IMG/VR virus record: IMGVR_UViG_3300029931_000005
Origin: an uncultured virus (IMG/VR IMGVR_UViG_3300029931_000005)
Taxonomy: Duplodnaviria > Heunggongvirae > Uroviricota > Caudoviricetes
DNA: 29,299 bases
Strand: one strand, 5' to 3'
The notes below the pieces were generated by a model. It was given only the letters and a program-made list of their open reading frames with translations, was not told the origin of the DNA and searched no databases. Made by a program: the position numbers and the translations under genes. This document shows, piece after piece, positions 816-29,299 of this stretch; within the stretch, counting starts at the first letter, position 1, and each line of letters starts with the position of its first letter.

Positions 816-1223
816 TTATAGCCTGAATATTTTGTTACTACCGTCACTCCATTGGCAAACTATATCCCCACCATTTGGCGTAACGGGGAGATTTGTGGCG
901 GCGTCTATATTGAATATCAGACGGCTGGTAGCCTCCGTGCCGGTGTCCTGGTAGCAATCAATGGATTCGGCCTGGTCGCCAGTTACGGCCGTAAATGTCA
1001 CGTTGGCCGCATCCGCCACTCCAGCGGCGACGGTCTTGGAACCCAGGTTGCTAGACGTGGCCACACGCGAGCCAGCGGCTCGGTCGGCCAGGTCCTGGTC
1101 GCTGGCCAGGTTGATGGTGTCATCCGCTTCATCGATCAGGACGAGCTTGATGTTGTCGCCATCCCAATCAATGTCGCCCGCTAAAAAGCCTTCTCGGCCA
1201 TAGTCATACAGGGAGTCTGCCAT
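816..1223 (-). CDS. Small virion structural protein (minor tail / fibre-associated)
   Basis: MADSLYDYGREGFLAGDIDWDGDNIKLVLID...LPVTPNGGDI..W...IFRL resembles a small phage protein I recall beside EAFG-repeat fibre genes; AAGGAG SD. Confidence 0.7.
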   Translation of the reverse strand: MADSLYDYGREGFLAGDIDWDGDNIKLVLIDEADDTINLASDQDLADRAAGSRVATSSNLGSKTVAAGVADAANVTFTAVTGDQAESIDCYQDTGTEATSRLIFNIDAATNLPVTPNGGDIVCQWSDGSNKIFRL

Positions 1224-1235
1224 AAGGTTCTCCTT

Positions 1236-1595
1236 CTACGAGACGGTCTTTGATTTCTTGAGGCGAATGCGCCCCTCAAACACCACCTCCGGTTTGCCAG
1301 ATAATGTCACTCGGCACTCATGGTAATAGCGCCCCGGCAACAGGTCGTTGGTGTCGGCTGCATCCAGCGTGATTTGCACGGCATCATTTGTGCCATCTTC
1401 ACTAACCAGCACGACCCCATCCCCCACGCTCTTTTCGATGACCGCCGACCCCGCCCCTTTCGACGTAAATACCCCGTAATAAATGGTGGCCCCGGTCATG
1501 TTTAATGGCTGTCCGGTGATGCTATCGGTCACTGGAGCGGTAATAATCTTGGCCGTCCCCTGCATCATTTCCAGGTCTTGATTTTTCTTTGTCAT
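1236..1595 (-). CDS. BppU N-terminal-like baseplate/fibre adaptor
   Basis: PLNMTGATI...VQITLDAADTNDLLPGRYYHECRVT pattern; ATGA overlap with the upstream gene. Confidence 0.6.
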   Translation of the reverse strand: MTKKNQDLEMMQGTAKIITAPVTDSITGQPLNMTGATIYYGVFTSKGAGSAVIEKSVGDGVVLVSEDGTNDAVQITLDAADTNDLLPGRYYHECRVTLSGKPEVVFEGRIRLKKSKTVS

Positions 1596-3610
1596 ATCTG
1601 CCCCTCTAGATTCTTGTCTAATGCGTATTCACCAAGCAGCCTGACGTTTAGGTCATAAATCCCCACCAGCGCCACGCGACCGGCAGCAGTCACAGTCAGC
1701 ACCATGACGGCCGTACCAAAAGCCTCGGCGCTGGCAATGCCTGCTGGCACAATAAACACAGCGTTATTGTTTATTTCCGTCGCCCCAAACACCTCGCTGC
1801 TGGCTATCCCGGCGGCAACCAGCGAAATGATGGTTTGAATATCGGCAGACCCGAACGCCTCGCCGCTGGGCATGCTGCTGGTCCCCAAGGTGATCCCTGT
1901 GTTTATAACGGCCGTACCAAACGCTTCCAGGGAATCAACGCTAACAGGCAAGAGGATAAGCGCGCCAGAGTCAACCGAGGCCGCGCCAAACGCCTCGCCA
2001 CTGGCAATGCTGTTGACCACCAGGGAGACGAGGGCCTGAATGTTGGTCGCCCCAAAGGCCTCGGAGCTGGGGATACTGCTGGCTGCCAGGGAAAGCAGAG
2101 AATTAAGCTGAGCAGTGCCAAACGCTTCGCCGCTGGCAATGTCGCCCGCCTCAATAAACACCTGTCCCTGGCTCACAGCGGCCGAGCCAAACACCGTGGC
2201 GCTGGCTATCCCGGCGGGCAGCAGCACCACCGCGCCGGGCAAAACAACGGCCGTTTCAAACGCCTCCTGGCTGGCGATTCCATTGGCTACCAGGGTGATA
2301 GAAAACCGCATCTCCGCCGCCCCAAAAGCTTCCTGGCTGCTAATTCCAGCAGGTAACAGGGAAACACTCCCAACGGTCATCAAAGCCGCCCCAAAAGCCT
2401 CCTGTGGGGCAATGCTGGCCGCAGAAAGGGTCAGATTGCCAGTATCAATTACGGCCGTTTCAAATGCCTCCTGGCTGGCCACCCCGCTGGGCAGCAGCGA
2501 GACGAAAGCCTGTAAAACGGCCGTGCCAAATGCTTCCAGGCTGGCAATTCCAGGGGGCAGCAAAACAACAGCGCCGGGGGCAACAACGGCCGTTTCAAAG
2601 GCTTCTAGACTGGCAACGCTGGTGGGGAGAATGGTTATTGCCCCGGAATCTACGAGGGCTGCACCAAATGCCTCCTGGCTGGCCACCCCGCTGGGCAGCA
2701 GCGAGATCAGGGATTGCAGCACGGCCGTGTCAAACGCCTCGCCACTGGCAAGGCTGCTCGTCACCAGAGAAATAGTGGCCTGCAAGGTCGCCCCTCCAAA
2801 GGCTTCCTGCGGGCTAATGCTGGTGACGACAAGGGTCAGGCTGCCAACCTGCACAACGGCCGTTTCAAACGCTTCCAGGCTGGCAATGCCGCTGGGCTGG
2901 ATGGCGATCGCGCCTTGATCAACAACGGCCGTTTCAAAGGCCTCCAGACTGGTAACCCCGCTAGGCTGGACGGTCACCGCTCCGGGTGCTACCGCGTGAC
3001 TGCTAAAGCTCTCTGCGCTATCAATGCTGCTGGCTACCAGGGTTTGAGGGCCTGCTAAACCGCCACCGCCAAAGTCGTCGACTGCACCGCTGGACATACC
3101 AAGCCCAAGATAGCCAGCGGTGGTGTAGGTGCTGTCGGTTCGACTGCCGAGACTGGTCCAGCCAGAACCGGTATCAACATAGGCCGTTAGCGTGCCGGCC
3201 ACAATCTCCAACCCGAATTTGTTCCCGGCGACCAGCTCCTGGCTAAAATTGGCACCCAGGACGGTTTCCACCCCATCATCAAATCGCACAATTTGCAACG
3301 TATCAGTGCCACTCACCTTGTTAAACTTAAGCGCATATCCATCAAACGAACTGCCGGAGATGTCCCCCAGCAGGGCACACACATACATGCTGCGATTGCT
3401 GGACGGCACAGTGGCAATCGTGGTGTACACCTCGCAATCGGCAACGGCGAGAATGGTCGCGTAGTAGCTGATATTCAGTCCAACGGCATTGGCCACGGCC
3501 GTGTTGGATGAAACTCTCAACCCACCCGCGAGATCGGCCCAGCCAGTCATCGGCGGGCCCTCGTTTGATCTGTTGAGGTTGTCGATTATCCCGTTTACAG
3601 GAAAGGCCAT
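1592..3610 (-). CDS. Fibre-like structural protein: N-terminal lectin-like domain plus 20 repeats of 22-23 aa
   Basis: Repeat consensus LLPSGIASxEAF(G/E)TAVV; located in the tail-tip module. Confidence 0.75.
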   Translation of the reverse strand: MAFPVNGIIDNLNRSNEGPPMTGWADLAGGLRVSSNTAVANAVGLNISYYATILAVADCEVYTTIATVPSSNRSMYVCALLGDISGSSFDGYALKFNKVSGTDTLQIVRFDDGVETVLGANFSQELVAGNKFGLEIVAGTLTAYVDTGSGWTSLGSRTDSTYTTAGYLGLGMSSGAVDDFGGGGLAGPQTLVASSIDSAESFSSHAVAPGAVTVQPSGVTSLEAFETAVVDQGAIAIQPSGIASLEAFETAVVQVGSLTLVVTSISPQEAFGGATLQATISLVTSSLASGEAFDTAVLQSLISLLPSGVASQEAFGAALVDSGAITILPTSVASLEAFETAVVAPGAVVLLPPGIASLEAFGTAVLQAFVSLLPSGVASQEAFETAVIDTGNLTLSAASIAPQEAFGAALMTVGSVSLLPAGISSQEAFGAAEMRFSITLVANGIASQEAFETAVVLPGAVVLLPAGIASATVFGSAAVSQGQVFIEAGDIASGEAFGTAQLNSLLSLAASSIPSSEAFGATNIQALVSLVVNSIASGEAFGAASVDSGALILLPVSVDSLEAFGTAVINTGITLGTSSMPSGEAFGSADIQTIISLVAAGIASSEVFGATEINNNAVFIVPAGIASAEAFGTAVMVLTVTAAGRVALVGIYDLNVRLLGEYALDKNLEGQI
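1695..3045 (-). repeat. Degenerate coding tandem repeat, 66-69 bp unit, about 20 copies
   Basis: Recurring AAACGCCTC/CTGGCTGGC/ACGGCCGTTTCAAA blocks on the + strand match the EAF repeats. Confidence 0.85.
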
Positions 3611-4588
3611 TTAGTCACCTGTCTGGCAAACCACATATGGACCATCTACTACCAGCAAGCCTAGGCACACCAGCTCGTAGGCACCTGGCGTCAGTATCAA
3701 AGGCAAATAAACGGTCGTCGGTGTGGCCGTAGCGGTTTCTGTCGGTGTGGCGGTGGGGGTGCTGGTATCAGTTGGCGCTGGTGTGTCTGTAGGAATGGGG
3801 GTGTCTGTAGGCGCAGGGGTATCGGTTGGCGTCAGCGTTGGTGTTGAAGTGGGTGTCTCCGTTGCTGTAGGAGTTTCGGTGGGAGTGGCAGTTGGCGCTG
3901 GTTGGAAAGTGGCGTCCAGCCGATGAACAACCCACTTCTGCCCCAGCTGCTGCACCCAAATGCTGGTTAGCTCCAGGCGCAAAAACGGCGCATAATCCAC
4001 CACGGCCGTGCCACACAGCAGCGGGTACTTCCACATGCCGCATACTTCGGTGCTGGGCCATTTGACCAGGGTAGCCACTGGCTGCCAGTTCGCCCCGTCC
4101 TCGCTGGCTTCAATAACGGCCGTAAAGCTGGTCCCGCCTACCGAAACCAACTCAACCATAAAATCAAGGGTAATCTGTGCCCCGGCTGGTATGCCCAGCG
4201 CAGCCAGATCGTACGTTTGCCACATATGCGCGGGTACGCCAGGGTAGCCAAAGCCCTCGTTGCTTACCGGGCCATTTTTGAACATAGCTCCGCCGCCACC
4301 GGGGTTTATGGGGTGACTATTCTTGCTGCCACATTTGGACAGAGACACGTGCTCATCGAGTTCCCATTCGGCAGCGTTAGTTGGCTCATTGTCGGGATAG
4401 TGGGTCATGGGACAGGTGTCGTTGTTGACACCCATGGCGAACCCATTTCGGATGAGGGAAAGCGTTACGGCCGCTTCTGGCTCAGCGCTGGTCGTCGGCT
4501 GGGAGGTAGCAACAACGGCCGCGAAAATCGGCAGCAGCAACAAAACACCAAATCTAAGTCTGTGAACAAGTTGGGAATATGTAACCAT
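3611..4588 (-). CDS. Secreted or surface protein with signal peptide, Pro/Thr linker and VYLPLI motif (moron-like)
   Basis: Basic then hydrophobic N-terminus ([19 protein letters not shown]), Cys-containing beta domain, PTxT repeats at ~3715-3900, then TVYLPLI. Confidence 0.75.
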
Positions 4589-4628: not shown

Positions 4629-5420
4629 CTAGAAGAAAGCGCCCTTGGTATGCTCGAAGAAGTTGCGAAAAAGCGTCTCGTTGCTGGTGCTATTCATGAT
4701 GGCCACCATGGCGCAGTTACCGCTTGCGAACGAGCTGCCGCCATGAAGTGCGCCTATCGTTACACCGACGGCCGTGGGATTATTGATCGATGCCGGAATG
4801 CTTGTTGTGTTTTGGCCAGAGCTCCAGCCGTCGCGTGTGCCCAGGAACACCTGGACAAATGTGCCTGGCGAGTAGTTACCAGCACAACAAACCCATTCAC
4901 CAGCTGGGGCCGGCGTCGTAGCATTTGTGGCAGTTGTGCCATTGCAAACAGTCAGGTTTAAGTTATCACTGGAACCAATCGTGAACAACCAAGCCATGTT
5001 GGCAGAGCCGCTAAGGGAGCTGGTTTTTGAAATGAGAGGGAATTGCGTACCAGCGGTTGATTTGTAGAACCAACCTATTACGCTCAGCGATCCCGTGATT
5101 TCCAGCCCGGCCTCGCTGGCCCGTGACAGATAAGTGCTAGAACCGTCGAGAGTAAGATAGCGCAGCAGGTTATTGGTGTGCTGCTGAAAGGCAACAGTTC
5201 CATTCGTAGACATGTGCCGGGCTTGGCCTGTTAGATCATAAATGAATCCAGGTGCCCACTGATTCATTAACCATACTCCGCGCAGGTTGGGAAAAAGCAG
5301 CGGTATGGTGCGCATGGCCATCCACGCCTCAACCACCTGATTCGGCCGCCTGATCTGAGTCCTAAGCTGCGCTACCTCGCGCTCCAGGCGTTGTATGGTT
5401 TGCATCATATCGCCGCTCAT
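4629..5420 (-). CDS. LamG/concanavalin A-like tail-tip protein with N-terminal coiled coil
   Basis: Start moved to ATG 5420 (ATGA overlap with the Tal stop). IQRLEREVAQLR coil, then LTLDGSSTYLS...LEITGSLSVIGW LamG-like pattern. Confidence 0.7.
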   Translation of the reverse strand: MSGDMMQTIQRLEREVAQLRTQIRRPNQVVEAWMAMRTIPLLFPNLRGVWLMNQWAPGFIYDLTGQARHMSTNGTVAFQQHTNNLLRYLTLDGSSTYLSRASEAGLEITGSLSVIGWFYKSTAGTQFPLISKTSSLSGSANMAWLFTIGSSDNLNLTVCNGTTATNATTPAPAGEWVCCAGNYSPGTFVQVFLGTRDGWSSGQNTTSIPASINNPTAVGVTIGALHGGSSFASGNCAMVAIMNSTSNETLFRNFFEHTKGAFF

Positions 5421-6526
5421 AGAATTCCCTCCACACGTGCGGATGCTGTCTCCAATCCCCCGCCACTGACAGACACACGAATCATGCGGATGATGGCCGT
5501 AATTTGCTGGCCCAGGTGGCTTATGGTGATTTTGTCGCCCAGCCACCAGCCATTACCGCCTAAAGGTGTCAGGGGTGTGGGTATCAGGTCGGCCGTAAAG
5601 CGCAGTTGCGCCCGTTTGGCGATTACCTCTGCCGCGGCCGCATCTTGCACCTTGGCCACCGTATTAGCCTGGCTGGCCGCCACATACCCTTCGCGCCGGT
5701 TCCACCGGCTGGCGGCAACGGCCGTGGCGTCACTGGCTGACTGCACATTTTGCAAAACCCCCTCACCCTCGCCTCCGGCGTAGACAAAGTTGATCTCGCT
5801 ATCGCGCAGTGTTTCCATCGTGGCATTAGTGATGTTGCCAAACTGGCTGCCAAAATAAAGCGGGTTATTTCCGTCGAATGAGCGGTCGTTGCCCGGCTGG
5901 CCGGTGCGTGTCTCGAAAATGAATGTATCGGGGGTAGCAGCCCGCATTCTCCAGAATACCTCAGCTCCTCCCCCTCGCGTTGTTTGCTGAATTTGCTGGA
6001 ATACGGCAAGTAGATTCTCGAATGCAGCGGCAATTTCGATGTCCGGCCCAGCGGACAGATCGCCCTGGACAGAAACCCCAAGTGCGCTCATGTCGCGTCC
6101 GGCCTCGGTGGCCAGGCTGCCCAGATTCTCGCGGGCATACGCTTTCATTACGTCATCGGCTGGGCCATCTTTGATACTGTAGTTAGTCCGGTCGAAGTAG
6201 GCGACGATGCGCCGCTTGATGAGTTCGTTGGGATCGCCACCAGACAGCCGCGTGGTGGCCAGACCAGAGGCTTCCATAGAATTTCCCCAGCGCCGGATAA
6301 ATCCAATAGCCACCAGCTGCAAGCTGGCCCCATCGGGGGCACGATAGATGTGAATGCGGTTATCCACCTGAGGATTGTTGTAAATACGGCCGTTGTCATA
6401 AGGCATTGGGACGTTAATCCAACCCACGTCACCATCCACCAGGGTGTAGTCAAATCCCTGAGTGGTGTTTAGCAGCTCCAGGTGGTTGCCTGCGTCGTCG
6501 GTGTACCAGATTTCGTAGCGGGGCAT
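5417..6526 (-). CDS. Tail tip/hub protein (Tal, siphovirus Gp37-like)
   Basis: Follows Dit; NFVYAGGEGEG...RWNRREGYV...WWLGDKITI motifs; AAGGAG SD. Confidence 0.75.
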   Translation of the reverse strand: MPRYEIWYTDDAGNHLELLNTTQGFDYTLVDGDVGWINVPMPYDNGRIYNNPQVDNRIHIYRAPDGASLQLVAIGFIRRWGNSMEASGLATTRLSGGDPNELIKRRIVAYFDRTNYSIKDGPADDVMKAYARENLGSLATEAGRDMSALGVSVQGDLSAGPDIEIAAAFENLLAVFQQIQQTTRGGGAEVFWRMRAATPDTFIFETRTGQPGNDRSFDGNNPLYFGSQFGNITNATMETLRDSEINFVYAGGEGEGVLQNVQSASDATAVAASRWNRREGYVAASQANTVAKVQDAAAAEVIAKRAQLRFTADLIPTPLTPLGGNGWWLGDKITISHLGQQITAIIRMIRVSVSGGGLETASARVEGIL

Positions 6527-14850: not shown

Positions 14851-14880
14851 CAAGAAGGGGATTTTGAGGTTATACGGCCG

Positions 14881-18984: not shown

Positions 18985-19319
18985 TATTGACTTAACTCCG
19001 CTTCGGCCTGCACGCTGATCTGCGTGTTCGGCCGTATAAACGTGACCCGATACAAACGGCCGTTGAGGGTGAACCGGTCGTCTTTTTGAATATCTAACGT
19101 GGTGTCACCCACCACCACGATCTGGGCCCGAGACTCTTCTGACTTTTCGCCGTTCGCCTGTCTGCCGCGGCTGCGGGTACGCTCGACACGCACTGTTTGA
19201 GCTGCCAGTATGGTGGTTGACCCACTCACATCCCGGCGCAGCACGAGGGAAACGGAGTTATCGCCGATCAAGCTGGCAACATCCGCCTTCATCTTGGCAA
19301 TGTCAGCAGCAGTCAGCAT
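18984..19319 (-). CDS. Head closure / head-tail joining protein
   Basis: MLTAADIAKMKAD...LDIQKDDRFTLNGRLYRVTFI pattern. Confidence 0.7.
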   Translation of the reverse strand: MLTAADIAKMKADVASLIGDNSVSLVLRRDVSGSTTILAAQTVRVERTRSRGRQANGEKSEESRAQIVVVGDTTLDIQKDDRFTLNGRLYRVTFIRPNTQISVQAEAELSQ

Positions 19320-19622
19320 TTAGCTGCGGTCCAGGTATTGCACCAGCAGCTTGCCGCCAGTAGAGGCGGTGCCGCCAGCGTTGTTGATGGTGTTGGCAGC
19401 CGTGATGGTGAACTCACTGGTGAGATCGGCAATGTCGGTGACGGCCGTACCTGCGCCAGGGAAGTGCAGCACGCTGATCAGCTCGTCAGCGGTGCTGATA
19501 CCCGTCACGGTGCGGTTACCCGCGCTGCCACCAGCAACAACGGCCATCTTGAAAAGGCCTCGCGCCAGCACCCCCTCGCGGGAACCAAAATCGGTTAAAG
19601 TTTGGACTTTAGGCATGGTCAA
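19320..19622 (-). CDS. Small virion structural protein
   Basis: Gly/Thr/Ala-rich 100 aa, translationally coupled within the head-completion genes. Confidence 0.6.
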   Translation of the reverse strand: MTMPKVQTLTDFGSREGVLARGLFKMAVVAGGSAGNRTVTGISTADELISVLHFPGAGTAVTDIADLTSEFTITAANTINNAGGTASTGGKLLVQYLDRS

Positions 19623-20278: not shown

Positions 20279-20856
20279 TAAGCAACCTCGAATTCCCCGT
20301 CACGCTGGAAGCGGACCAACCAGGCACCGGGATAATCGGCAACGGCCGTTTCAAACTGAGCAAACGGCACACGGCGGGACTCACCTTGCAAGATGCGACT
20401 GCCACCCAGAATGGCGGAGGCCAGGGTGTTCAGGCGGATAACCACCTCGGTAGGGCGATCTTCCCAATCTGCATAGACGGGGGTGCCGTCCCCACCTTCC
20501 GGGTCACCCGCAACGGGGTCATCTGCGACCGGTGCGGCCGTGTCATCAGACTCGGGCTCGGGCTCGGCTACGGCATCACCCGGTTCACCCGCGCCCCCAG
20601 GTTCAACATCGGGATCCGAATTCGGGGTATTTAGGTCACTTACCTCGGGGGTTGGTTCCTGGGGCGCAGGCGTACCCACGGCGGCTCCGGTCAACTCGGC
20701 CTCAGCAGCAGCCAGAATTTGATCGGCCGTTGTTTCGCCAATGCCGGAGATGTTGGTCAGCCCTTCCTTGCCAGCCTGCAGCGCCTGTACGGCCGTTTTG
20801 ATACCAGCATCGTCCAGGAGCTTGCGGGTGCGTGCGTTTAGCGTTTCAAAAGACAT
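20278..20856 (-). CDS. Helix-hairpin-helix protein with acidic Pro-rich linker
   Basis: Start moved to ATG 20856 (AGGAGG SD). LLDDAGIKT...LTNISGIGETTADQI is an HhH motif. Confidence 0.7.
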   Translation of the reverse strand: MSFETLNARTRKLLDDAGIKTAVQALQAGKEGLTNISGIGETTADQILAAAEAELTGAAVGTPAPQEPTPEVSDLNTPNSDPDVEPGGAGEPGDAVAEPEPESDDTAAPVADDPVAGDPEGGDGTPVYADWEDRPTEVVIRLNTLASAILGGSRILQGESRRVPFAQFETAVADYPGAWLVRFQRDGEFEVA

Positions 20857-20943: not shown

Positions 20944-23742
20944 TTAGCTGATCTTGACGTAGGCGCCCTTGCCAGGAATCGGGGCGATATACCCGTTGTA
21001 CTGCTGGATATAATACTGTTCGCTGGCCACCAACTCGCGGTCGCTGTTGTAGGTCGGGAACGGGCCTTTCAGCTCCATTGCCCCGAAGGTGCGGTACATC
21101 AGCAGCTCGCGGTTGTGAATGAGGGCGTAGGCATCGGTGAACACCGGCGAGGCGTACACATCCAGCCCCTTCATCCGCCCCACGTACCCGGCTTCGTCCA
21201 ACATGGTGTCAGGACGGGCACCTGCGGCCGTGAAGAAATCGGCGTTGGAAATCAGGTCGCTGTTGGTCTTGCTCATCAGCATAATTTCCGGGGTGTAGAA
21301 GCGGTTCTCCACCTTCACCCGCGCCGTACCGGCTTTCTTGAGAAATTCCTTTTCGGAATCGGTGGCCGAGGCCCAGGTGCCGCCAGAGTTGCTGGCTACG
21401 GTGAGCACACGGCTCAAGGCATCGTGCATCAGGTTGCTGTCAATCCGGCGCATCACCTCTTTCATGAGCAGGTTGATGGTCCGGCCGACCACGTCGTAGC
21501 CCAGCTGGGAACGGCTGAATTTGATAGCCTCGTCGGTCACTTCCGTGGCCAGGCGGTCGGCAATCAAGCTCAGGTCCTCGTAGGCCACTTTGGAGCGGGC
21601 GCGTTCAATACCCAGGCCCTCACCCTTGCGGATGGCTTTGTGGGTGTAACTCACGTAGACCGTGGCCGCGTCAGCGATTGCCCCGTCGGCGAAGTTCATG
21701 AAACGGCCGTTGGTGTGGTCAATCACGTAATCGGTGCCATAGGTGTACAGCGTGCCGCCACCAGAGGCGGCGCTGCGAGCCACAATCGAGCTGGGGTCAA
21801 CACGCTTGTTGGCCAGGTTCACCCAGGTGTCGTCATCGGCAGTGATGCTTTCGTCGGTGACCGTGACATTGGTGCCGGTCTCTGCCTCATATTGAGCCTC
21901 ATAGAACACGCGGGTGGGGTTGGTGTCCACCGTACCCACATCGAAGATGCTCAGCGCCACCAGCTGCGGGAAAGCCTCGTCCACGATGGCCCGGAGCACG
22001 CTGTAAGGCGAGTTCAACTGGCTGGTGGTCATAGCCTCCTGCCAGTCGTGGGCTTCCTTGGCCAACTGGCGCTCAAACTGCTTGTCGAACGCTTCCAGGT
22101 ACAGCTTGGTGAAGCGTGCGGCCCGGCTGGTCTGGCTGCGATTTTGGCGCGGCTGCCAGAAGTTGTGGGCAATCATGGATTCGGTGATTTCATAAGCAGC
22201 CCGAGCAAACTCAGGCACATTAGCTTCGGCTTCAATCATCGGCACGATGTGCTGCACACGGCCGTTGCCACCCATACCCATTTGGGTCAGACGCTCTTTG
22301 GCGACCAGGGGGGCGAACAAGGCTTTGGCCTCTTCCAATTTGGTCTTGGCAATTTCCGCGGTGGCCGCTTCGCCGATATAGGCCTTCACCCGGTCCTTAT
22401 ACAGTTCGGGATAGGGCAGCTCAGCAACGGCCGTTTCCACGTAAGTGGCGGCTTCACGAGCCAGGTCTTTGGCGCGGCCCTCGTCCAGCTTTTTCTGCTC
22501 AGCGGCCAGCGCTTCGGCCAGGTTGCCATCGGGGCCAATGCCCAGGCGTTCGCGCAGAGCTTTCTCGGCCGCAGCAGCGGCAGCCTGTTCTTTGGCTTGG
22601 ACTTCGACCAGTTCGGCCTGACGTTGGGCTTCGGCCTCTTCCAGCTTGGCAGCCTTGTCGGCAGCAGCTTTGGCGGTTGCCTCGGCCGTTTTCACGGCTT
22701 CTTGCAGCTCTTTGATTCGAGCTTCGGCCGCATCAACGGCAGATTTGTCTTTGGCTTCACGCAGGGATTTCAGTTCTTTCTGCGCTTCGGCCAACTGTTG
22801 TTTGAGTTGTTCAATGTCCATTTCGTTCGTCGTGCCTCCATTTGCACTTTCTTGGAATGCGGTGACGCCAGCACCGGCAAAGCCTGGCTCCAGGACCAGA
22901 TCGGCCCCGGTTAAGCGCAGCCAGATAACCTCATCGATGGTTTCGTCACCCTCTTTAACTTGCTCACTCTCGCCGTAGGCCCTAAGCGAGATAGGAGGCA
23001 TCACTCCCGCTCGCATAACCGACAGGACATCTTTGCCAACGGCCGTTTCCACGACATTGCCAGCGATGTAGACCCAGCCGTCCGATTCGTCGAACCAGAC
23101 GTCGTCCCACACCACCACAACTTCGCGGAGCATTGGCCGCTGATACTTGTCCCCCGGATGAGCATCCTCGCCGGTCAGGATGGCGCGTGCCTGGGAAAAG
23201 CTCTCGTGCAGGTGGGAGCGCGCTTCTTCCACCGCATCACGGAGCACAATCCGCCGATACCGCCTGCCATTGCGATTTACCACATCCGCTTCGGCTAATT
23301 TGGCCTCTACACGCGGCACACCTGGTTTCTTCTTGTTCTTGGCTTCAACCAGGCGCACTGCGCTTGCATACGTTTCTGTAAATTTGGAGCCGCGCTTGAG
23401 GCGCTGCTCTGACATAGGGGCTGGCTCTCCTCCCCCGCCCTGGCTGCCGGGCAACTGGTAGCCCAGCTCGATCACTTCCCAATCCTCACGAGGGGCAAAC
23501 GTCACCTTGGCACCATCGCGCTGATAGGCGACCATGTAGAATTCGTCGATGGGCAGCTGGCTGCTGGACACCACGATGAATTCAGCAAAGGTGTCCTCAA
23601 CGTTGAACCACTCGCCGCTTTCATAGTCCCAATTGCTGGGGAACGTCTTGTGAAATGCCCGCACAATGACGTGCCGGGTGTACTCGATGGAACCCTTTAC
23701 CAATTCAGTTAGCGGGCTGCCCCGGTTAATACGCTTTTTCAT
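20944..23742 (-). CDS. Prohead protease-scaffold-major capsid polyprotein
   Basis: NRNGRRY...GEDAHP...ISLRAYG...GADLV protease motifs (T4 gp21-like), an Ala/Glu/Lys coiled coil, then a capsid-like C-terminal ~360 aa; AAGGAG SD. Confidence 0.88.
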   Translation of the reverse strand: MKKRINRGSPLTELVKGSIEYTRHVIVRAFHKTFPSNWDYESGEWFNVEDTFAEFIVVSSSQLPIDEFYMVAYQRDGAKVTFAPREDWEVIELGYQLPGSQGGGGEPAPMSEQRLKRGSKFTETYASAVRLVEAKNKKKPGVPRVEAKLAEADVVNRNGRRYRRIVLRDAVEEARSHLHESFSQARAILTGEDAHPGDKYQRPMLREVVVVWDDVWFDESDGWVYIAGNVVETAVGKDVLSVMRAGVMPPISLRAYGESEQVKEGDETIDEVIWLRLTGADLVLEPGFAGAGVTAFQESANGGTTNEMDIEQLKQQLAEAQKELKSLREAKDKSAVDAAEARIKELQEAVKTAEATAKAAADKAAKLEEAEAQRQAELVEVQAKEQAAAAAAEKALRERLGIGPDGNLAEALAAEQKKLDEGRAKDLAREAATYVETAVAELPYPELYKDRVKAYIGEAATAEIAKTKLEEAKALFAPLVAKERLTQMGMGGNGRVQHIVPMIEAEANVPEFARAAYEITESMIAHNFWQPRQNRSQTSRAARFTKLYLEAFDKQFERQLAKEAHDWQEAMTTSQLNSPYSVLRAIVDEAFPQLVALSIFDVGTVDTNPTRVFYEAQYEAETGTNVTVTDESITADDDTWVNLANKRVDPSSIVARSAASGGGTLYTYGTDYVIDHTNGRFMNFADGAIADAATVYVSYTHKAIRKGEGLGIERARSKVAYEDLSLIADRLATEVTDEAIKFSRSQLGYDVVGRTINLLMKEVMRRIDSNLMHDALSRVLTVASNSGGTWASATDSEKEFLKKAGTARVKVENRFYTPEIMLMSKTNSDLISNADFFTAAGARPDTMLDEAGYVGRMKGLDVYASPVFTDAYALIHNRELLMYRTFGAMELKGPFPTYNSDRELVASEQYYIQQYNGYIAPIPGKGAYVKIS

Positions 23743-24292: not shown

Positions 24293-24338
24293 AAATGGCC
24301 GCAGCAAGTCCCCGTCTCGGGTGGGGGACGGCCGTTGC

Positions 24339-24856: not shown

Positions 24857-24882
24857 AAAAAAGGGCGAAACGGCCGTTTCGC
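24857..24882 (-). terminator. Intrinsic terminator-like hairpin built on the iterated palindrome
   Basis: 18-bp perfect palindrome GCGAAACGGCCGTTTCGC (24865-24882) followed by CCTTTTTT on the minus strand. Confidence 0.65.
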
Positions 24883-25428: not shown

Positions 25429-25731
25429 CTACCCACCACTCCCCCCAACGGCCGTTTTCACATCTGCCCGGTCCAGGATGGCCGTAGCGGCTTCGCGTCG
25501 GACACTGGGGTCAGAGTGGGCCAATAGGCACACCAGTGTATGGACCGCTGCGGGTGCCGCAATTTCGAACCTTTCATTATTCTGACGAATGCGATCACTG
25601 ACTTTATTGTAAAGCCCGACGCACTGATCGACCGCGAAGCCGTGCTCAGCCATCAGAATCTGGGCCACGGTCAGCATTATCTGACCAGCTAAATCTCCCG
25701 GCGCAGGCGCACCCAACCTCACCACAGACAT
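25429..25731 (-). CDS. Chimeric protein: paralog of 26523..26813 fused to a copy of a TerS C-terminal segment
   Basis: Start ATG 25731 (AAGGAG SD); hand alignments given under findings. Confidence 0.75.
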   Translation of the reverse strand: MSVVRLGAPAPGDLAGQIMLTVAQILMAEHGFAVDQCVGLYNKVSDRIRQNNERFEIAAPAAVHTLVCLLAHSDPSVRREAATAILDRADVKTAVGGSGG

Positions 25732-25753: not shown

Positions 25754-26215
25754 TTACTCACGGCCATCCTCCTCGACTGTCGTCTCCTCAACGGCCGTTT
25801 CTGTACCCTGAACCAACTTGGGATATGGTTCGAGGTAACCCATATCCCCCTCGTGTTTGGGAACCAAGGCTACGGCCGTGACTGCGAGAATTTTTGTTAC
25901 AACCTGCGGCCCATCGGGGCTGAGCTGGTCTGACTCCACAACCATACTGAGCGCCGGTCGGAGGTTGGCGGCGACGGCTTCATCAAGTGGCGTTTCAAAA
26001 TATATGACCAACTGGCCATCCACAAGCCGAACCTGGCCAATGGCATCCTCCAGGCGATACCCAGGCCACAAGGGAGTCAGGTTATAGCTAACAAGCGTGC
26101 CAGGCAGCATTTGCCGCACCAGTTCCTTTGCCTCATCGGATAATGTGTACCCGTTGAAGGACTCGCCCATCAACATGCCGTCATGCAGAACATAAGCGCC
26201 ATATGCCTTACTCAT
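25754..26215 (-). CDS. Hypothetical protein, possible degenerate prohead-protease paralog
   Basis: Start ATG 26215 (GAGGAGG SD); collinear motifs shared with the capsid protease domain. Confidence 0.55.
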   Translation of the reverse strand: MSKAYGAYVLHDGMLMGESFNGYTLSDEAKELVRQMLPGTLVSYNLTPLWPGYRLEDAIGQVRLVDGQLVIYFETPLDEAVAANLRPALSMVVESDQLSPDGPQVVTKILAVTAVALVPKHEGDMGYLEPYPKLVQGTETAVEETTVEEDGRE

Positions 26216-26226: not shown

Positions 26227-26523
26227 TCAACGGCCGTTTTTCTGGCCACTTCTCAAGTTTTCCAACATGTGGTCAAGATCGCTGGATAAATCCCATAGCG
26301 GTTCCAGGATCGGGTACGTTGTAACATCTGCGCTCATCAGGCCGGTTTTTGGGATGTGCACGGCAAAATCGTCAGGCAGCTTAGATTCGATAGTAAACAG
26401 TGCTCGATCTAGCCAGTGCATGATGTCATCAAGAACGGCAATCAGAACCTCACTGTTGCCCGCGCTGGCTTGAATCAACCGGGAGAGGGGAATAGCCACC
26501 AGGGTTTCGTTGATAGAATCCAT
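26227..26523 (-). CDS. Hypothetical protein
   Basis: TAATG coupling and GAGGGGG SD; no family recognised. Confidence 0.6.
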   Translation of the reverse strand: MDSINETLVAIPLSRLIQASAGNSEVLIAVLDDIMHWLDRALFTIESKLPDDFAVHIPKTGLMSADVTTYPILEPLWDLSSDLDHMLENLRSGQKNGR

Positions 26524-26813
26524 TATGCATCCCCCTCGACGGCCGTTAATGCCTCAGGCGCGGCCGTTCCCTCTTCCGCCCACGCCGCCTGGCCACCACG
26601 CAGCACGGCATTGTTCTGGCGGATGTGTTTGACCACCTTTTCGCCAAACTCGACACACTGATCTTGGGTAAAGCCATAGTCACCTATCAGGACCTGGGCC
26701 GCAGCCGTCATTATCTGGCTGGCCGAATCCTGGCGCACCTGCATCTCAAATGCCGCCTCGCGCAGCGCCTGGCGCTGTCTGCCGCTTACCTTGGTTTTGA
26801 TTTTCTTTCTCAT
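26523..26813 (-). CDS. Hypothetical protein
   Basis: AAGGGAAGGA SD; has an internal paralog at 25429..25731. Confidence 0.7.
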   Translation of the reverse strand: MRKKIKTKVSGRQRQALREAAFEMQVRQDSASQIMTAAAQVLIGDYGFTQDQCVEFGEKVVKHIRQNNAVLRGGQAAWAEEGTAAPEALTAVEGDA

Positions 26814-27096: not shown

Positions 27097-27129
27097 TGTT
27101 GTTGTGACTAGATACCGCTCGTCTGCCTC

Positions 27130-28878
27130 CTAAGTAAGTCCCAACTGGTCGGTCGTAACGACACGGCCGGTTCCGACTTCTAATTTTTTCTCAATCTCGG
27201 TAAAAATGTGCGGCGGAGCTGCGCACAGAACAAACCCATCACCATCGTCTGGCGAACGGCCGTATTCCTTCTTGAACTCGTCCTTATCCACCAGGCGCTT
27301 GATGGTCTTACCCGATCGGTTAACCCACTTCCACTTGCGGGCCGTCAGGTCAACCTCCAGTTCGTTAGGCGGGTCTACAACCTGGATACCCTTGATGGTC
27401 TCCCCGGCCTCGGCGTACATTTCCGTGACGATGAGATCGTAGGCATTGGGGTCATGAGCAGCAGAGCCGAAGTGAACTTCAATCACCTTGAACTCATCAA
27501 ACGCTTCCTCCAGCTCAATGTCCATTTTCAACAGGTCGATAGTGCCCCCACCAAAGCCGCCTGTGCCGTCCACGCGGATGTGCAGCTTTGTGACGCCCAG
27601 CCTGGCCAGGCGCAGGGCAGCTTTGCGCGTTTCCTGGTAGTAGACATTGTTGTCTAACTGGAAAAACTGAGCCTGCCGCCAGATGCGGCCCGCATGGCGA
27701 ATGTAGAGCGTGCCAAAGTCGCTGCCGCGCCGGGCGGCATCAATTCCCATGTAAGCCGTTGTCAGGTCGTGCTCGACCGGATTTACCTTACGTGCAACGG
27801 CCGATTCGTAGCGGCCAGATGGGATGAATGTATCATCACTGGTTTCCTTGGGGGCAATCCCCATGACACGGAAGAGGTATTCATTGTTTGGGCGATAAAT
27901 GACGCCCGGTTCCCACGGCAGCTCGAAAGTAAACCAGTCGGGGTTGTGCTCTGGTACAACGCGGCAGTGTTTTTCTACCATGGTCAGCACATAATCGCGG
28001 CGGACCGCGCCGGGCACAACCTCACGGCCGTGGAGCACGTTGGGGTGATGGTGGCAGCTCATGCGGAAATTAACCACATCCGACTGCCCGCGCTGCCGGT
28101 GAAACTTGCTGGTCCGGGTGCGCGGGTTGGCCGTCATGATCACGATGGCAATACCACCAGAGGCCATAGAGTCCACCGCGTCCCACACAAAGTCGGCGAC
28201 GCCCTCGGCTTCATCCAGGATGAACATCAGGTATTTTTCATGCTGCCCCTGGGCACGTTCGGTACCGGCGTTGTTGGCATTGTTGGTAGCCTTACCCTTG
28301 GCGAAGTGATTGGGCTTGTATTTCAGCTCTGGCTTTTCTAGGACGGTGCCGGGCAGGTCGATGTTGCGGCGACGGTCGGTGCGGATCTCCTTCCACAGCA
28401 GATCGTTGATCTGCTCGTAGGTTGGAGCGAAGGTGTACTCAATGCAGCCATCGGTCTCTTCTTCTGCAACGCAGTCGAAGAAGTGAGAAAACAGGCCAGA
28501 TAAAATCTTGGTCTTGCCCGTGGTGTGACCCGCCTCGATGCGCAGCCGATTTTGAACCGTCTGTCCCGGCTGCCAGTGCTGCAAATCGGCCGTAGCTACG
28601 TGGCCTTTCTCCCACTTGTCCTTTTCGTGCAGCTGCAGCAGAGCCAGGCGATACGCTTCAATAATCTGCACCTGTCCGGGATGTTCGGCCGTGCCGCTCC
28701 ACGGCGTCCAGCCCAGGCGCTCCACAATGTAGGTGTATGGGTCGTACTTGTAGCCAGACAGGGTGGGATAGGTGTACTGAACGGCCGTTTCCGTCTGGCG
28801 GCGGCGGCGCTCCTTGGCTGCAGCCAGGCGCACGTCGGCAAGGGTGGTAATCTGGCGGGTAGTGGTAGGCATCATCAT
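27130..28878 (-). CDS. terL: Terminase large subunit
   Basis: Walker A AGHTTGKT, Walker B FILDEAEG, TANP, nuclease motifs MGIDAAR.GSD and SPDDGDG. Confidence 0.93.
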   Translation of the reverse strand: MMMPTTTRQITTLADVRLAAAKERRRRQTETAVQYTYPTLSGYKYDPYTYIVERLGWTPWSGTAEHPGQVQIIEAYRLALLQLHEKDKWEKGHVATADLQHWQPGQTVQNRLRIEAGHTTGKTKILSGLFSHFFDCVAEEETDGCIEYTFAPTYEQINDLLWKEIRTDRRRNIDLPGTVLEKPELKYKPNHFAKGKATNNANNAGTERAQGQHEKYLMFILDEAEGVADFVWDAVDSMASGGIAIVIMTANPRTRTSKFHRQRGQSDVVNFRMSCHHHPNVLHGREVVPGAVRRDYVLTMVEKHCRVVPEHNPDWFTFELPWEPGVIYRPNNEYLFRVMGIAPKETSDDTFIPSGRYESAVARKVNPVEHDLTTAYMGIDAARRGSDFGTLYIRHAGRIWRQAQFFQLDNNVYYQETRKAALRLARLGVTKLHIRVDGTGGFGGGTIDLLKMDIELEEAFDEFKVIEVHFGSAAHDPNAYDLIVTEMYAEAGETIKGIQVVDPPNELEVDLTARKWKWVNRSGKTIKRLVDKDEFKKEYGRSPDDGDGFVLCAAPPHIFTEIEKKLEVGTGRVVTTDQLGLT

Positions 28879-29299
28879 TTCAACAATGCCTCAATCACAT
28901 CCTGGGGCGATCGAGCGTTTTGCAGCGCCTCAATCTGCACCAGGGTCAGGGCGGTCATGTCGATGTTATTCAAAATGAGGTTCATCAACTGGCCTTCTTT
29001 GGACGCCGTTTCCACGCCTGCCCGATCCAGGATGGCCGTAGCAGCCCGGTATTGGACGTTTGGGTCGGGGTTGGCCATCAGGGCCACTAACTTGCCGGCC
29101 GCCGTAGGCGCAGCCAGCTGCAGGCGCTCAGTGGCCAGTTGCAGCGACCTCACATATCTACTGTCCTGCCACTCCTTGGCCAGTGTGCTCAGCGCTCCCA
29201 GGCAATCGGCAAAAGCCGGGTCTAGCTTCCATTTCGTGTGATAGGTTTTGACGTTGCAGGTGTCAGGGCGGCCAAACACGGCCGTTTCCGACTCGCCAG
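28875..29299 (-). CDS. Terminase small subunit (5' end outside the window)
   Basis: Frame open to the right edge; TYHTKWKLDPAF...AATAILDRAG; ATGA overlap with terL. Confidence 0.7.
   Translation of the reverse strand, partial: GESETAVFGRPDTCNVKTYHTKWKLDPAFADCLGALSTLAKEWQDSRYVRSLQLATERLQLAAPTAAGKLVALMANPDPNVQYRAATAILDRAGVETASKEGQLMNLILNNIDMTALTLVQIEALQNARSPQDVIEALLK

What the first reader, a model, noticed from the sequence alone, without database searches (positions are those of the whole stretch)
985..29285. HIP1-like highly iterated palindrome ACGGCCGT that imprints on proteins
Seen: about 48 exact copies (e.g. 985, 2247, 6386, 13092, 19056, 23039, 28781) where under one is expected at ~55-60% GC, plus ~40 more CGGCCG cores. 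It is often extended (AACGGCCGTT, GTAACGGCCGTTAC at 13089, an 18-mer at 24865). It is used in all three frames: TAV, xGR and xRP peptides recur in unrelated proteins. Established: cyanobacterial HIP1 (GCGATCGC) and DNA uptake sequences behave similarly, and CGGCCG is the EagI site, whereas phages usually avoid palindromes. Inference: a host-driven process (methylation-linked repair, uptake or chromosome-binding site) acting on a long-resident phage; it could serve as a host-assignment signature.
Basis: partly seen in the sequence, partly recalled or inferred. Interest (0 to 1): 0.7.

Follow-up and report, generated by a model that had tools for sequence, protein, structure and literature searches.

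The report
Host's iterated palindrome written into phage
This phage carries the 8-letter palindrome ACGGCCGT about 80 times more often than chance because its Chloroflexota hosts write that word through all their DNA, and related phages in sister hosts carry those hosts' different words instead.

Summary
ACGGCCGT occurs 48 times in 29.3 kb, against 0.6 expected. The excess survives the codon-aware null: 9.7±2.3 and 3.2±1.1. All 28 TAV tripeptides are encoded by the word, and TAV is about 5-fold enriched.

The cause lies in the host. Five Chloroflexota genomes (Promineifilales/Ardenticatenaceae-type) carry 1.7-2.1 copies per kb, and the window carries 1.64. Only 2 of 151 class-level genomes have the excess, against 53 of 121 order-level genomes.

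Three results were not in the earlier scan notes I searched:
- Sister genomes use other words instead: TGCCGGCA in 4 and GCGGCCGC in 2.
- Syntenic relatives of this phage binned with such genomes have no ACGGCCGT. One carries GCGGCCGC at 1.9 per kb.
- Neither Vsr nor C5-methyltransferase presence tracks the word, and core one-off variants of every substitution type are depleted.

The best reading is an ongoing host-cell conversion bias of unknown reader, not Dcm/Vsr-type repair. The scan found this word before on other DNA. I found no description of it in the papers I searched. I rate it a new variant of the cyanobacterial HIP1 kind.

The parts
985..992 (.). ACGGCCGT, read TAV in gene 816-1223 (-)
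1592..3610 (-). 672-aa minor tail protein with 22-23-aa F[EGD]TAV repeats; it holds 10 copies of the word, which are not independent
1707..1714 (.). ACGGCCGT, TAV, tail repeat protein
1908..1915 (.). ACGGCCGT, TAV, tail repeat protein
2247..2254 (.). ACGGCCGT, TAV, tail repeat protein
2451..2458 (.). ACGGCCGT, TAV, tail repeat protein
2517..2524 (.). ACGGCCGT, TAV, tail repeat protein
2586..2593 (.). ACGGCCGT, TAV, tail repeat protein
2721..2728 (.). ACGGCCGT, TAV, tail repeat protein
2856..2863 (.). ACGGCCGT, TAV, tail repeat protein
2925..2932 (.). ACGGCCGT, TAV, tail repeat protein
3495..3502 (.). ACGGCCGT, TAV, tail repeat protein
4002..4009 (.). ACGGCCGT, TAV, gene 3611-4588
4116..4123 (.). 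ACGGCCGT, TAV, gene 3611-4588
4768..4775 (.). ACGGCCGT, PRPS frame, gene 4629-5546
5718..5725 (.). ACGGCCGT, TAV, gene 5417-6526
6386..6393 (.). ACGGCCGT, NGR, gene 5417-6526
6740..6747 (.). ACGGCCGT, LRPS frame, gene 6537-8978
9057..9064 (.). ACGGCCGT, NGR, tape measure 8994-12437
10352..10359 (.). ACGGCCGT, LRPL frame, tape measure
11833..11840 (.). ACGGCCGT, TAV, tape measure
12524..12531 (.). ACGGCCGT, intergenic
13089..13102 (.). 14-base palindrome GTAACGGCCGTTAC around the copy at 13092 (TAV, gene 12641-13138)
14874..14881 (.). ACGGCCGT, intergenic (touches the stop of gene 14881-15684)
15888..15895 (.). ACGGCCGT, TAV, head-morphogenesis gene 15674-16801
16480..16487 (.). ACGGCCGT, KRPS frame, gene 15674-16801
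16699..16706 (.). ACGGCCGT, ARPF frame, gene 15674-16801
17597..17604 (.). ACGGCCGT, YGR, portal-like gene 16886-18190; the only site shared with the G246 relative
17692..17699 (.). ACGGCCGT, VRPW frame, portal-like gene
17999..18006 (.). ACGGCCGT, DGR, portal-like gene
19056..19063 (.). ACGGCCGT, NGR, gene 18984-19319
19441..19448 (.). ACGGCCGT, TAV, gene 19320-19622
20342..20349 (.). ACGGCCGT, TAV, gene 20278-20913
20789..20796 (.). ACGGCCGT, TAV, gene 20278-20913
21703..21710 (.). ACGGCCGT, NGR, protease-capsid gene 20944-23742
22258..22265 (.). ACGGCCGT, NGR, protease-capsid gene
22427..22434 (.). ACGGCCGT, TAV, protease-capsid gene
23039..23046 (.). ACGGCCGT, TAV, protease-capsid gene
24328..24335 (.). 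ACGGCCGT, intergenic
24865..24882 (.). 18-base palindrome GCGAAACGGCCGTTTCGC around the copy at 24870 (NGR, start of gene 24339-24884)
25448..25455 (.). ACGGCCGT, TAV, gene 25429-25791
25791..25798 (.). ACGGCCGT, TAV, gene 25754-26230
25872..25879 (.). ACGGCCGT, TAV, gene 25754-26230
26230..26237 (.). ACGGCCGT, NGR then stop, end of gene 26227-26523
26539..26546 (.). ACGGCCGT, TAV, gene 26523-26813
27256..27263 (.). ACGGCCGT, YGR, 582-aa gene 27130-28878
28024..28031 (.). ACGGCCGT, HGR, gene 27130-28878
28781..28788 (.). ACGGCCGT, TAV, gene 27130-28878
29278..29285 (.). ACGGCCGT, TAV, gene 28875-29297

Best explanation
ACGGCCGT is not a phage device. It is the genome-wide 'highly iterated palindrome' of the phage's host clade, part of one order of filamentous Chloroflexota (NCBI Promineifilales/Ardenticatenia; records titled Promineifilaceae, Ardenticatenaceae, Ca. 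Leptovillus).

Shown: the phage carries the word at host density and with host-like saturation of every amino-acid context that can encode it. The word overrides codon preference and has changed amino acids. Homologous phages binned with sister hosts that use a different word carry that word and none of this one. Sites are mostly not shared even between relatives that live with the same word, so they are gained continuously.

Inferred: a host-cell, sequence-specific conversion bias coupled to replication or repair turns near-cognate sites into the word in whatever DNA replicates there for long enough. Its reader is unknown, and its specificity has switched at least twice within the order. The phage, probably a temperate or plasmid-like resident, has been rewritten by it. 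The process is not Dcm/Vsr-type deamination repair. About 0.9 of my confidence attaches to 'host-imposed word' and about 0.45 to 'repair/replication-coupled conversion bias' as the way it is imposed.
For: Density match:
- The window has 1.64 copies per kb. The 16.4-kb extension of the same phage (record G001) has 28 copies, 1.70 per kb.
- Five host-clade genomes have 1.69-2.09 per kb, which is 59-212 times the reversed-word control.
- The 53 of 121 order genomes with at least 0.9 per kb have a median of 1.53.

Specificity:
- Only 2 of 151 class-level genomes are hyper-abundant.
All titled non-Chloroflexota loci hold 0.4 per kb or less.

Saturation in ORFs of at least 120 aa:
- Phage: TAV 31 of 31, [DHNY]GR 19 of 29, xRPx 12 of 20.
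- Host G004: 373 of 380, 275 of 308, 117 of 170.
- Permissive peptides are enriched 5.2, 2.9 and 2.4-fold in the phage and 6.8, 3.7 and 2.0-fold in the host.
- Wrong-word controls run at 0-12%.

Natural experiment:
- Phage contigs G188:C62 and G260:C13 share 12 and 8 syntenic structural genes with the window at 31-58% amino-acid identity, and have 0 ACGGCCGT in all 109.3 kb and 69.5 kb.
- G188:C62 carries GCGGCCGC at about 1.9 per kb, and its genome has 12,073 copies in 8.0 Mb.
- In 20 alignable of 25 site-by-relative comparisons the relative never has the word, and it has the same peptide only once.

Ongoing gain: against the G246 fragments (a host with the same word), 1 of 5 alignable window sites is shared.

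Conversion signature: in 400 kb of host G004, core one-off variants total 68 against 296 for reversed controls, for transversions as well as transitions. Variants at the outer positions are not depleted.

Spacing is Poisson-like, with a CV of 0.85 in the phage and 1.05 in the host.
Against: - No reader or enzyme has been identified, so the conversion bias is inferred from patterns only.
- Saturation of permissive sites would give equal densities in phage and host under per-site selection too, so the density match does not by itself separate drive from selection.
- Density outside long ORFs is not higher than inside them in hosts (G004 1.56 vs 2.17 per kb, G188 0.50 vs 1.69). A pure mutational drive acting on unconstrained DNA might be expected to give the opposite.
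- The reversed-word controls are not codon-aware.
- The host link of the comparison phages rests on metagenomic binning plus the word itself. Neither contig is shown to be integrated.
- No CRISPR spacer or integrated prophage match ties this phage to a named host.
- The phage has proportionally more outer-position one-offs (21 and 24 against 76 full words) than host G004 (89 and 56 against 836), which is unexplained.
Confidence: 0.6

Rival explanations
1. Selected self-tag (mimicry). A host system reads the word, for example for strand discrimination in repair, recombination, nuclease protection or chromosome handling. Phages are selected to carry the host's current word, so the words are kept by function and not by a mutational bias.
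For: Homologous phages match their hosts' words exactly. Words switch within the order as a specificity would. The phage is as saturated as host genes. Xu et al. 2018 (PMC5861425, passages read) report that HIP1 sites are conserved beyond codon effects.
Against: Word-free stretches are tolerated in host genomes. A low-GC MTase/Vsr island in G201 has no copy in 2.8 kb, and G170 has gaps of up to 26 kb. So the tag is not obligatory for resident DNA. Spacing is Poisson-like and not regular. Near-complete saturation of thousands of sites needs a per-site benefit that is hard to picture.
Confidence: 0.2
2. Uptake-sequence-type molecular drive. The competence machinery prefers DNA carrying the word, and recombination with taken-up kin DNA spreads it, as for DUS and USS. 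The resident phage accumulates it as part of the host gene pool.
For: The density (about 1-2 per kb) and the tripeptide imprint resemble uptake sequences (Findlay and Redfield 2009, PMC2817400, abstract read). ComEC is present in 5 of 5 carriers and DprA in 4 of 5. From the search-listing abstracts, a 2024 bioRxiv preprint (10.1101/2024.09.10.611283) reports that HIP1 sites improve natural transformation efficiency in Synechococcus sp. PCC 7002. From passages read, the 2026 paper PMC13756078 reports a phylogenetic correlation between HIP1 and type IV secretion proteins and asks whether HIP1 acts as an uptake sequence.
Against: Phage DNA does not enter cells through uptake. Equal saturation in the phage and in host core genes is unexpected: the abstract of PMC2817400 says genes lacking homologs also lack uptake sequences. 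ComEC and DprA are nearly universal, so they do not discriminate. The imprint here is stronger (5-7-fold against about 2-fold).
Confidence: 0.12
3. Methylation-linked very-short-patch repair. A CGGCCG C5-methyltransferase with a Vsr-type T:G endonuclease converts T-variants into the word, as Dcm/Vsr enriches CCWGG in E. coli (recalled knowledge).
For: The core is a type-II-like site (CGGCCG). Elhai 2015 (PMC4390886, passages read) found CGATCG methyltransferases nearly coextensive with HIP1. The C-to-T variant ATGGCCGT is the commonest core one-off in both host and phage, which fits deamination at that C.
Against: Vsr (PF03852) is found in 15 of 121 genomes: 7 of 53 high, 0 of 12 intermediate and 8 of 56 low (Fisher p = 1.0). 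C5-MTase (PF00145) is found in 26 of 53 high and 18 of 56 low genomes (p = 0.08). None is found in G002, G003, G004, G006 or G055, and the first look gave no candidate at all in the long-contig G004. Depletion of one-offs is not specific to T or A variants; the C-to-T variant is the least depleted. MAG incompleteness and other methyltransferase classes leave a wider methylation ratchet open: PF01555 is in 116 of 121, MutS and MutL are in 5 of 5, and MutH is in 0 of 5.
Confidence: 0.04
4. Phage-specific function. The word is a binding site for a phage protein (packaging, replication or anti-restriction) and is independent of the host.
For: The word is spread evenly over the structural and early regions (1.64 and 1.70 per kb). 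The phage encodes an N6_Mtase-like protein and a ParB-like protein.
Against: Host chromosomes carry the word at the same density. Syntenic relatives lack it entirely and carry other words.
Confidence: 0.02

Closest known systems
HIP1 (GCGATCGC) and the alternate highly iterated palindromes of cyanobacteria (Elhai 2015, PMC4390886; Xu et al. 2018, PMC5861425)
   Same: It is an exact 8-bp palindrome at 1-2 per kb; Elhai gives 300-2,700 per Mb for HIP1. It occurs in coding and non-coding DNA and in all frames, and has no conserved flanks. The excess is beyond codon usage. One-offs at inner positions are disfavoured. Related genomes carry derivative or quite different words.
   Different: The word (ACGGCCGT) and the phylum (Chloroflexota) both differ. 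No coextensive C5 or clearly cognate methyltransferase was found. Here a phage and its relatives are shown to track the hosts' words. The HIP papers I searched do not mention phages: 'phage' has 0 occurrences in PMC4390886, PMC5861425 and PMC13756078.
DNA uptake sequences (DUS of Neisseria, USS of Pasteurellaceae; Findlay and Redfield 2009, PMC2817400)
   Same: Thousands of copies at about 1 per kb. They imprint on tripeptide frequencies, accumulate after gene transfer, and sit at poorly conserved residues.
   Different: The known uptake sequences are not palindromes (recalled). The imprint here is stronger. A phage is saturated with the word. Uptake preference is untested.
Dcm/Vsr very-short-patch repair bias in E. 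coli (enrichment of CCWGG, depletion of CTWGG; recalled)
   Same: It is a host repair process that shifts the frequency of a short palindrome across all resident DNA.
   Different: The defining genes do not track the word, and the variant spectrum is not specific to T or A variants. The size of the effect here is far larger.
Restriction-site (palindrome) avoidance in phages
   Same: This phage does avoid several 6-mer palindromes: ACTAGT, AGTACT, CTCGAG, GCTAGC and TTTAAA all have 0 copies in 45.7 kb.
   Different: ACGGCCGT behaves the opposite way; it is enriched and not avoided.

Membership tests
Highly iterated palindromes (HIP type, defined on cyanobacterial HIP1) | Short exact palindrome, tens-fold over-represented genome-wide at hundreds to thousands of copies per Mb | tested here: met
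   The window has 48 copies against 0.6 expected. Host genomes have 1.7-2.1 per kb, 59-212 times the control.
Highly iterated palindromes (HIP type, defined on cyanobacterial HIP1) | Scattered in coding and non-coding DNA, in all frames, and not part of a longer repeat or mobile element | tested here: met
   The flanks are not conserved beyond a weak A/T extension. All three frames and 3 intergenic sites are used. The word occurs both inside and outside ORFs. Exception: 10 copies lie in one protein's internal repeats.
Highly iterated palindromes (HIP type, defined on cyanobacterial HIP1) | Excess not explained by codon or amino-acid usage | tested here: met
   48 observed against 9.7±2.3 (synonymous permutation) and 3.2±1.1 (codon shuffle).
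Highly iterated palindromes (HIP type, defined on cyanobacterial HIP1) | Clade-wide, with derivative or alternative words in some related genomes | tested here: met
   Of 121 order genomes, 53 use ACGGCCGT, 4 use TGCCGGCA and 2 use GCGGCCGC.
Highly iterated palindromes (HIP type, defined on cyanobacterial HIP1) | The word is GCGATCGC, in cyanobacteria (HIP1 proper) | tested here: not met
   The word and the phylum both differ, so this is of the HIP kind but is not HIP1.
Highly iterated palindromes (HIP type, defined on cyanobacterial HIP1) | Cognate orphan methyltransferase coextensive with the word (Elhai 2015) | tested here: inconclusive
   PF00145 is in 26 of 53 high and 18 of 56 low genomes, and in none of 5 top carriers. 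PF01555 is in 116 of 121 and so does not discriminate. Specificities are unknown, and other methyltransferase classes were not tested.
Highly iterated palindromes (HIP type, defined on cyanobacterial HIP1) | The site is methylated in vivo | not testable with these tools
   This needs a long-read or bisulfite-type methylome.
DNA uptake sequences | Preferential uptake of word-bearing DNA by competent cells | not testable with these tools
   Only gene content could be checked: ComEC 5 of 5 and DprA 4 of 5, which does not discriminate.
DNA uptake sequences | About 1 copy per kb, with an imprint on the encoded tripeptides | tested here: met
   TAV is enriched 5.2-fold in the phage and 6.8-fold in the host. 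PMC2817400 reports about 2-fold (abstract).
Dcm/Vsr-type VSP-repair word bias | A C5-methyltransferase and a Vsr endonuclease present wherever the word is enriched | tested here: not met
   Vsr is in 7 of 53 high and 8 of 56 low genomes, p = 1.0. Top carriers lack PF00145.
Dcm/Vsr-type VSP-repair word bias | Specific depletion of the T (and complementary A) variants of the word | tested here: not met
   All core one-offs are depleted, and the C-to-T variant is depleted least: 19 against 29 for its control.

The most novel reading that the evidence does not exclude
These Chloroflexota have a swappable, sequence-specific 'word-writing' system whose target has changed at least twice within one order (ACGGCCGT, GCGGCCGC, TGCCGGCA). 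The current word acts as a lineage self-tag that resident phages and plasmids must match. A change of word would then re-draws phage-host compatibility, and the word would both rewrite proteomes and structure gene flow.
Probability: 0.2. Interest if true: 0.85.

Novelty: new variant of a known kind. Interest (0 to 1): 0.7.

Why it matters
What the cyanobacterial HIP1 palindrome does, and how it spreads, has been open for about thirty years. Here the same kind of phenomenon appears in another phylum. It comes with three mutually exclusive words inside one order, and with homologous phages that each wear their host's word. That gives a comparative handle HIP1 alone does not offer: the factor responsible should co-vary with word identity across closely related genomes, and it must act on phage DNA. 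The two textbook candidates (C5-methyltransferase and Vsr) can already be set aside.

In practice, the word gives a cheap and specific host-assignment signal for uncultured phages of wastewater and soil Chloroflexota. It also warns that peptide motifs such as TAV or NGR in these proteomes are DNA-level imprints and not functional motifs.

Tried and rejected
- **Whole genome of the window.** None is held, so host tests used genomes reached through a pattern scan.
- **Literal literature search.** 'ACGGCCGT' returned 293 papers; the 20 listed were primer-type hits and none concerned an iterated palindrome. 'Chloroflexi' + 'palindrome' + 'overrepresented' returned 3 irrelevant papers. 'HIP1' + 'cyanophage' returned 2 papers, and the one I read (PMC9239245) does not treat HIP1 in phages.
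- **Related phages in IMG/VR by portal protein.** Only two near-identical fragments came back: L001 with 3 mismatches in 5,883 bases and L002 with 17 in 9,410. Neither shows a gain or loss of the word, so they say nothing about turnover.
- **CRISPR spacer or prophage link.** Window 9300-29299 was searched against 121 order genomes; bases 1-9299 were not searched. The short, high-identity hits at query 15682-15712 match on both strands in several genomes, so they are a palindromic intergenic hairpin and not spacers.
- **'Integrated prophage' reading of G188:C62 and G260:C13.** Rejected. Both contigs are phage-like from end to end, so I call them phage contigs binned with those genomes.
- **Other words in 'word-poor' genomes.** The 2-4-kb loci were too short to tell.
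- **Earlier notes of this scan.** By place (relatives) nothing was recorded. By words, no note mentioned methyltransferases or the alternative words in this order.
- **TGGCCA as a deaminated derivative of the core.** Rejected, because its flanks are C..G and not A..T.

Full report
**Observation**

ACGGCCGT occurs 48 times in the 29,299-base window. Dinucleotide-preserving shuffles give a mean of 0.60 and a maximum of 3. The core CGGCCG occurs 90 times against 14.4 expected. No other 8-mer palindrome exceeds 6 copies.

All genes lie on the minus strand and form a siphovirus-type structural module: HNH endonuclease, minor tail proteins, tape measure, major tail, portal-like protein, and a protease-capsid fusion. 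Relative to these genes, the word is read 28 times as TAV, 11 times as [NHDY]GR and 6 times as xRPx. Three copies are intergenic.

Permuting synonymous codons within each gene gives 9.72±2.34 copies (max 18). Shuffling codons gives 3.22±1.09 (max 7). The observed count is 48. All 28 of the 28 TAV tripeptides are encoded ACG-GCC-GTN, and TAV itself occurs 28 times against 5.2 expected from composition.

One caveat applies. Ten copies lie in 22-23-residue repeats of one tail protein (1592-3610). Without that gene, 38 copies remain, or 1.39 per kb.

**The phage beyond the window**

A 39.9-kb virus record (G001; linear; CheckV completeness 44%) is identical to window 5835-29299 and adds 16,435 bases. 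The extension holds 28 more copies (1.70 per kb) against 1 of the reversed word. Its genes include an excisionase-like HTH protein, a radical-SAM protein, an N6_Mtase-like protein, SSB and a ParB-like protein. No C5-methyltransferase or Vsr match is seen among the called genes of the 45.7 kb.

**Where else the word is abundant**

No genome is held for the window. I therefore scanned one genome per species (185,579 species) for three copies of the word within 30-base gaps. This pattern has a chance expectation near zero (my estimate).

Counting the word only in the flanks of each hit separated two classes. All 2.5-10-kb loci with at least 0.75 copies per kb have record titles naming Chloroflexota: Ardenticatenaceae, Ca. 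Promineifilaceae, Ca. Leptovillus affinis, and unclassified 'Anaerolineae', 'Chloroflexia' or 'Chloroflexota' MAGs. All titled non-Chloroflexota loci have 0.4 per kb or less, so they are local repeats. Four loci of about 650 bases with a single flank copy have no title shown and are not counted.

Whole-genome counts in five of these genomes are 8,294-15,492 copies (1.69-2.09 per kb), which is 59-212 times the reversed-word control.

Among 151 genomes drawn evenly from the class, as the tool groups it, only 2 are hyper-abundant. Among 121 genomes drawn from the order:
- 53 have at least 0.9 per kb (median 1.53, range 0.92-2.18);
- 12 are intermediate;
- 56 have less than 0.2 per kb.

One of the 121, G184, is an unpublished genome. 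The NCBI lineage of Ca. Leptovillus is Chloroflexota; Ardenticatenia; Promineifilales; Promineifilaceae.

**Phage and host match quantitatively**

With long ORFs as gene proxies:

| | TAV | [DHNY]GR | xRPx | Peptide enrichment |
|---|---|---|---|---|
| Phage (45.7 kb) | 31 of 31 | 19 of 29 | 12 of 20 | 5.2, 2.9, 2.4-fold |
| Host G004 (400 kb) | 373 of 380 | 275 of 308 | 117 of 170 | 6.8, 3.7, 2.0-fold |

Wrong-word controls are used in 0-12% of their permissive sites.

**Alternative words in the same order**

This was not in the earlier scan notes I searched. The tool's control word, TGCCGGCA, is itself a palindrome, and it is the hyper-abundant word in four genomes that almost lack ACGGCCGT:

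| Genome | TGCCGGCA | ACGGCCGT |
|---|---|---|
| G168 | 4,690 | 21 |
| G170 | 8,850 | 64 |
| G187 | 6,775 | 110 |
| G224 | 4,560 | 132 |

A third word, GCGGCCGC, is hyper-abundant in 2 of the 121: G188 (12,073 in 8.0 Mb, against 2 for its reversed control) and G208 (10,592 in 6.1 Mb). Both alternative words saturate their own permissive contexts. In G170, CR[HQ] is encoded with the word at 32 of 36 sites and is 11-fold enriched. In G188, AAA is encoded with the word at 74 of 80 sites and is 3.9-fold enriched.

Avoidance is reciprocal. G170 has GGCC at an observed/expected ratio of 0.10 and 8 CGGCCG in 400 kb. G188 has no GCCGGC in 78.8 kb.

**A natural experiment with homologous phages**

A DNA search of window 9300-29299 against the order sample found distant relatives on G188:C62, G260:C13 and two short G246 contigs. 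G188:C62 shares 12 window proteins in synteny and G260:C13 shares 8, at 31-58% amino-acid identity.

- **Relatives in other-word hosts.** Neither contig contains a single ACGGCCGT in the 109.3 kb and 69.5 kb read. G188:C62 carries GCGGCCGC evenly, 5-15 copies per 5 kb and 47 in the 24.3-kb syntenic part. That is the word of the genome it is binned with. G260:C13 is rich in GCCGGC, with 153 copies in 29.5 kb; I did not count that hexamer genome-wide.
- **Relatives in a same-word host.** The G246 fragments hold 9 copies in 4.3 kb.
- **Site-by-site comparison.** In 25 site-by-relative comparisons, 20 were alignable. The relative never has the word, and it has the same peptide only once. For example, TAV aligns with NTL, KKA, LAR, TSQ and TKP, and NGR aligns with DGV, QGE and KGK. 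Against the same-word G246 fragments, only 1 of 5 alignable window sites is shared, and 5 of 6 G246 sites have no counterpart in the window.

So the sites are lineage-specific gains and not inherited motifs, and the imprint on proteins is direct.

A caution is needed on the host link. Both comparison contigs are phage-like from end to end: G188:C62 has a tape measure that wraps the contig ends, ParA/ParB, a sliding clamp, an integrase and its own methyltransferases. They are phage or phage-plasmid contigs binned with those genomes, not demonstrated prophages.

**Mechanism tests**

- **Vsr (PF03852).** Found in 15 of 121 genomes: 7 of 53 high, 0 of 12 intermediate and 8 of 56 low (Fisher p = 1.0).
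- **C5-methyltransferase (PF00145).** Found in 47 of 121: 26 of 53 high, 3 of 12 intermediate and 18 of 56 low (p = 0.08). It is not found in G002, G003, G004, G006 or G055. G004 has megabase contigs and gave no first-look candidate.
- **PF01555.** Present in 116 of 121, so it does not discriminate. The strong carrier G003 has only a marginal hit, E = 4.6e-4.
- **Mismatch repair.** MutS and MutL are present in 5 of 5 carriers tested, and MutH in 0 of 5.
- **Competence.** ComEC is present in 5 of 5 and DprA in 4 of 5.
- **One-off spectrum.** In 400 kb of G004, one-off variants at the six core positions total 68 against 296 for reversed-word controls. Transversions are included (ACCGCCGT 4 against 86), and the C-to-T variant is depleted least (19 against 29). 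Outer-position variants are not depleted (55, 89 and 56 against 63, 58 and 20). These controls are not codon-aware.
- **Spacing.** It is Poisson-like, with a CV of 0.85 in the phage and 1.05 in G004.
- **Word-free stretches.** Low-GC methyltransferase/Vsr islands in word-rich genomes lack the word.

MAG incompleteness limits every statement of absence. These are 'not found in those searched'.

**Interpretation**

Shown: the word is a property of the host clade, and the phage carries it at host level. It overrides codon choice and alters peptides. It is replaced by other words in homologous phages associated with other-word hosts. Sites turn over.

Inferred: a host-cell, sequence-specific conversion bias acts on all long-resident DNA, and its reader is unidentified. 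The variant spectrum and the gene distributions argue against a Dcm/Vsr-type route. Selection for a self-tag, and an uptake-type drive, remain live rivals. The ParB-like gene, together with relatives carrying ParA/ParB and an integrase, fits a temperate or plasmid-like resident lifestyle, but this is not shown.

**Comparison and novelty**

The behaviour matches cyanobacterial HIP1 and its alternates in density, frame independence, disfavoured inner-position one-offs and the existence of alternative words in relatives (Elhai 2015, PMC4390886, passages read; Xu et al. 2018, PMC5861425, passages read).

It differs in word, in phylum, and in the lack of a coextensive methyltransferase among the families tested. 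Neither of those two papers contains 'CGGCCG' in its main text, and the 2026 HIP1 paper PMC13756078 contains no 'Chloroflex'. All three contain no 'phage'.

The protein imprint resembles that of uptake sequences but is stronger (PMC2817400, abstract read).

My searches found no description of an ACGGCCGT-type iterated palindrome. Supplements were not consulted. Earlier notes of this scan had already reported the word in Chloroflexota genomes and in another phage. By word search, they had not reported the alternative words, the homologous-phage contrast or the methyltransferase and Vsr tests.

Noticed in passing
order sample: G168, G170, G187, G224 (TGCCGGCA); G188, G208 (GCGGCCGC): Alternative hyper-abundant 8-mer palindromes replace ACGGCCGT in some genomes of the same order. 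They have the same saturation of permissive codon contexts.
   Followed up: yes
G170:C2:1-400000 (L178-L197); G188 contigs C1-C4 (L172-L177): Avoidance is reciprocal. G170 has GGCC at observed/expected 0.10 and almost no CGGCCG, and G188 has no GCCGGC in 78.8 kb. Several ACGGCCGT genomes have only 4-27 TGCCGGCA copies in the whole genome. This looks like restriction pressure that may limit which word a lineage can hold.
   Followed up: partly
window, whole length: A second enriched hexamer palindrome: TGGCCA occurs 48 times against 23.3±4.3 under the synonymous-codon null (max 35). Its flanks are C..G (CTGGCCAG occurs 6 times), so it is not a decayed copy of the main word. TTTAAA is absent from the 45.7 kb of phage, although the hosts have it at about the expected frequency.
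   Followed up: partly
window 1592-3610 (-): The 672-aa minor tail protein is built of 22-23-residue repeats with an F[EGD]TAV core. Each repeat carries the word, so a protein repeat and the DNA word have amplified together.
   Followed up: partly
G188:C62 (L202-L204, L198, L199, L149, L150): A 109-kb circularly permuted relative of this phage has ParA and two ParB genes, an integrase, a sliding clamp, an MmeI-like enzyme and a C5-methyltransferase. This suggests a phage-plasmid lifestyle for the lineage.
   Followed up: partly
window about 24981-25010: An intergenic palindromic stretch matches short sequences on both strands in several order genomes (G233, G161, G220). It looks like a shared hairpin or terminator-like element and not a CRISPR spacer.
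   Followed up: no
L129:5282-6373 (G001 extension): The phage encodes a 363-aa protein with an N6_Mtase motif region and an N-terminal part matching phrog_5696, next to a 622-aa protein of no known family. Its target and role are unknown.
   Followed up: no
phage 45.7 kb compared with G004 400 kb: The phage has proportionally more outer-position one-offs (GCGGCCGT 21 and TCGGCCGT 24 per 76 full words) than host G004 (89 and 56 per 836). This is unexplained. Its true host may have a looser outer-base preference.
   Followed up: no
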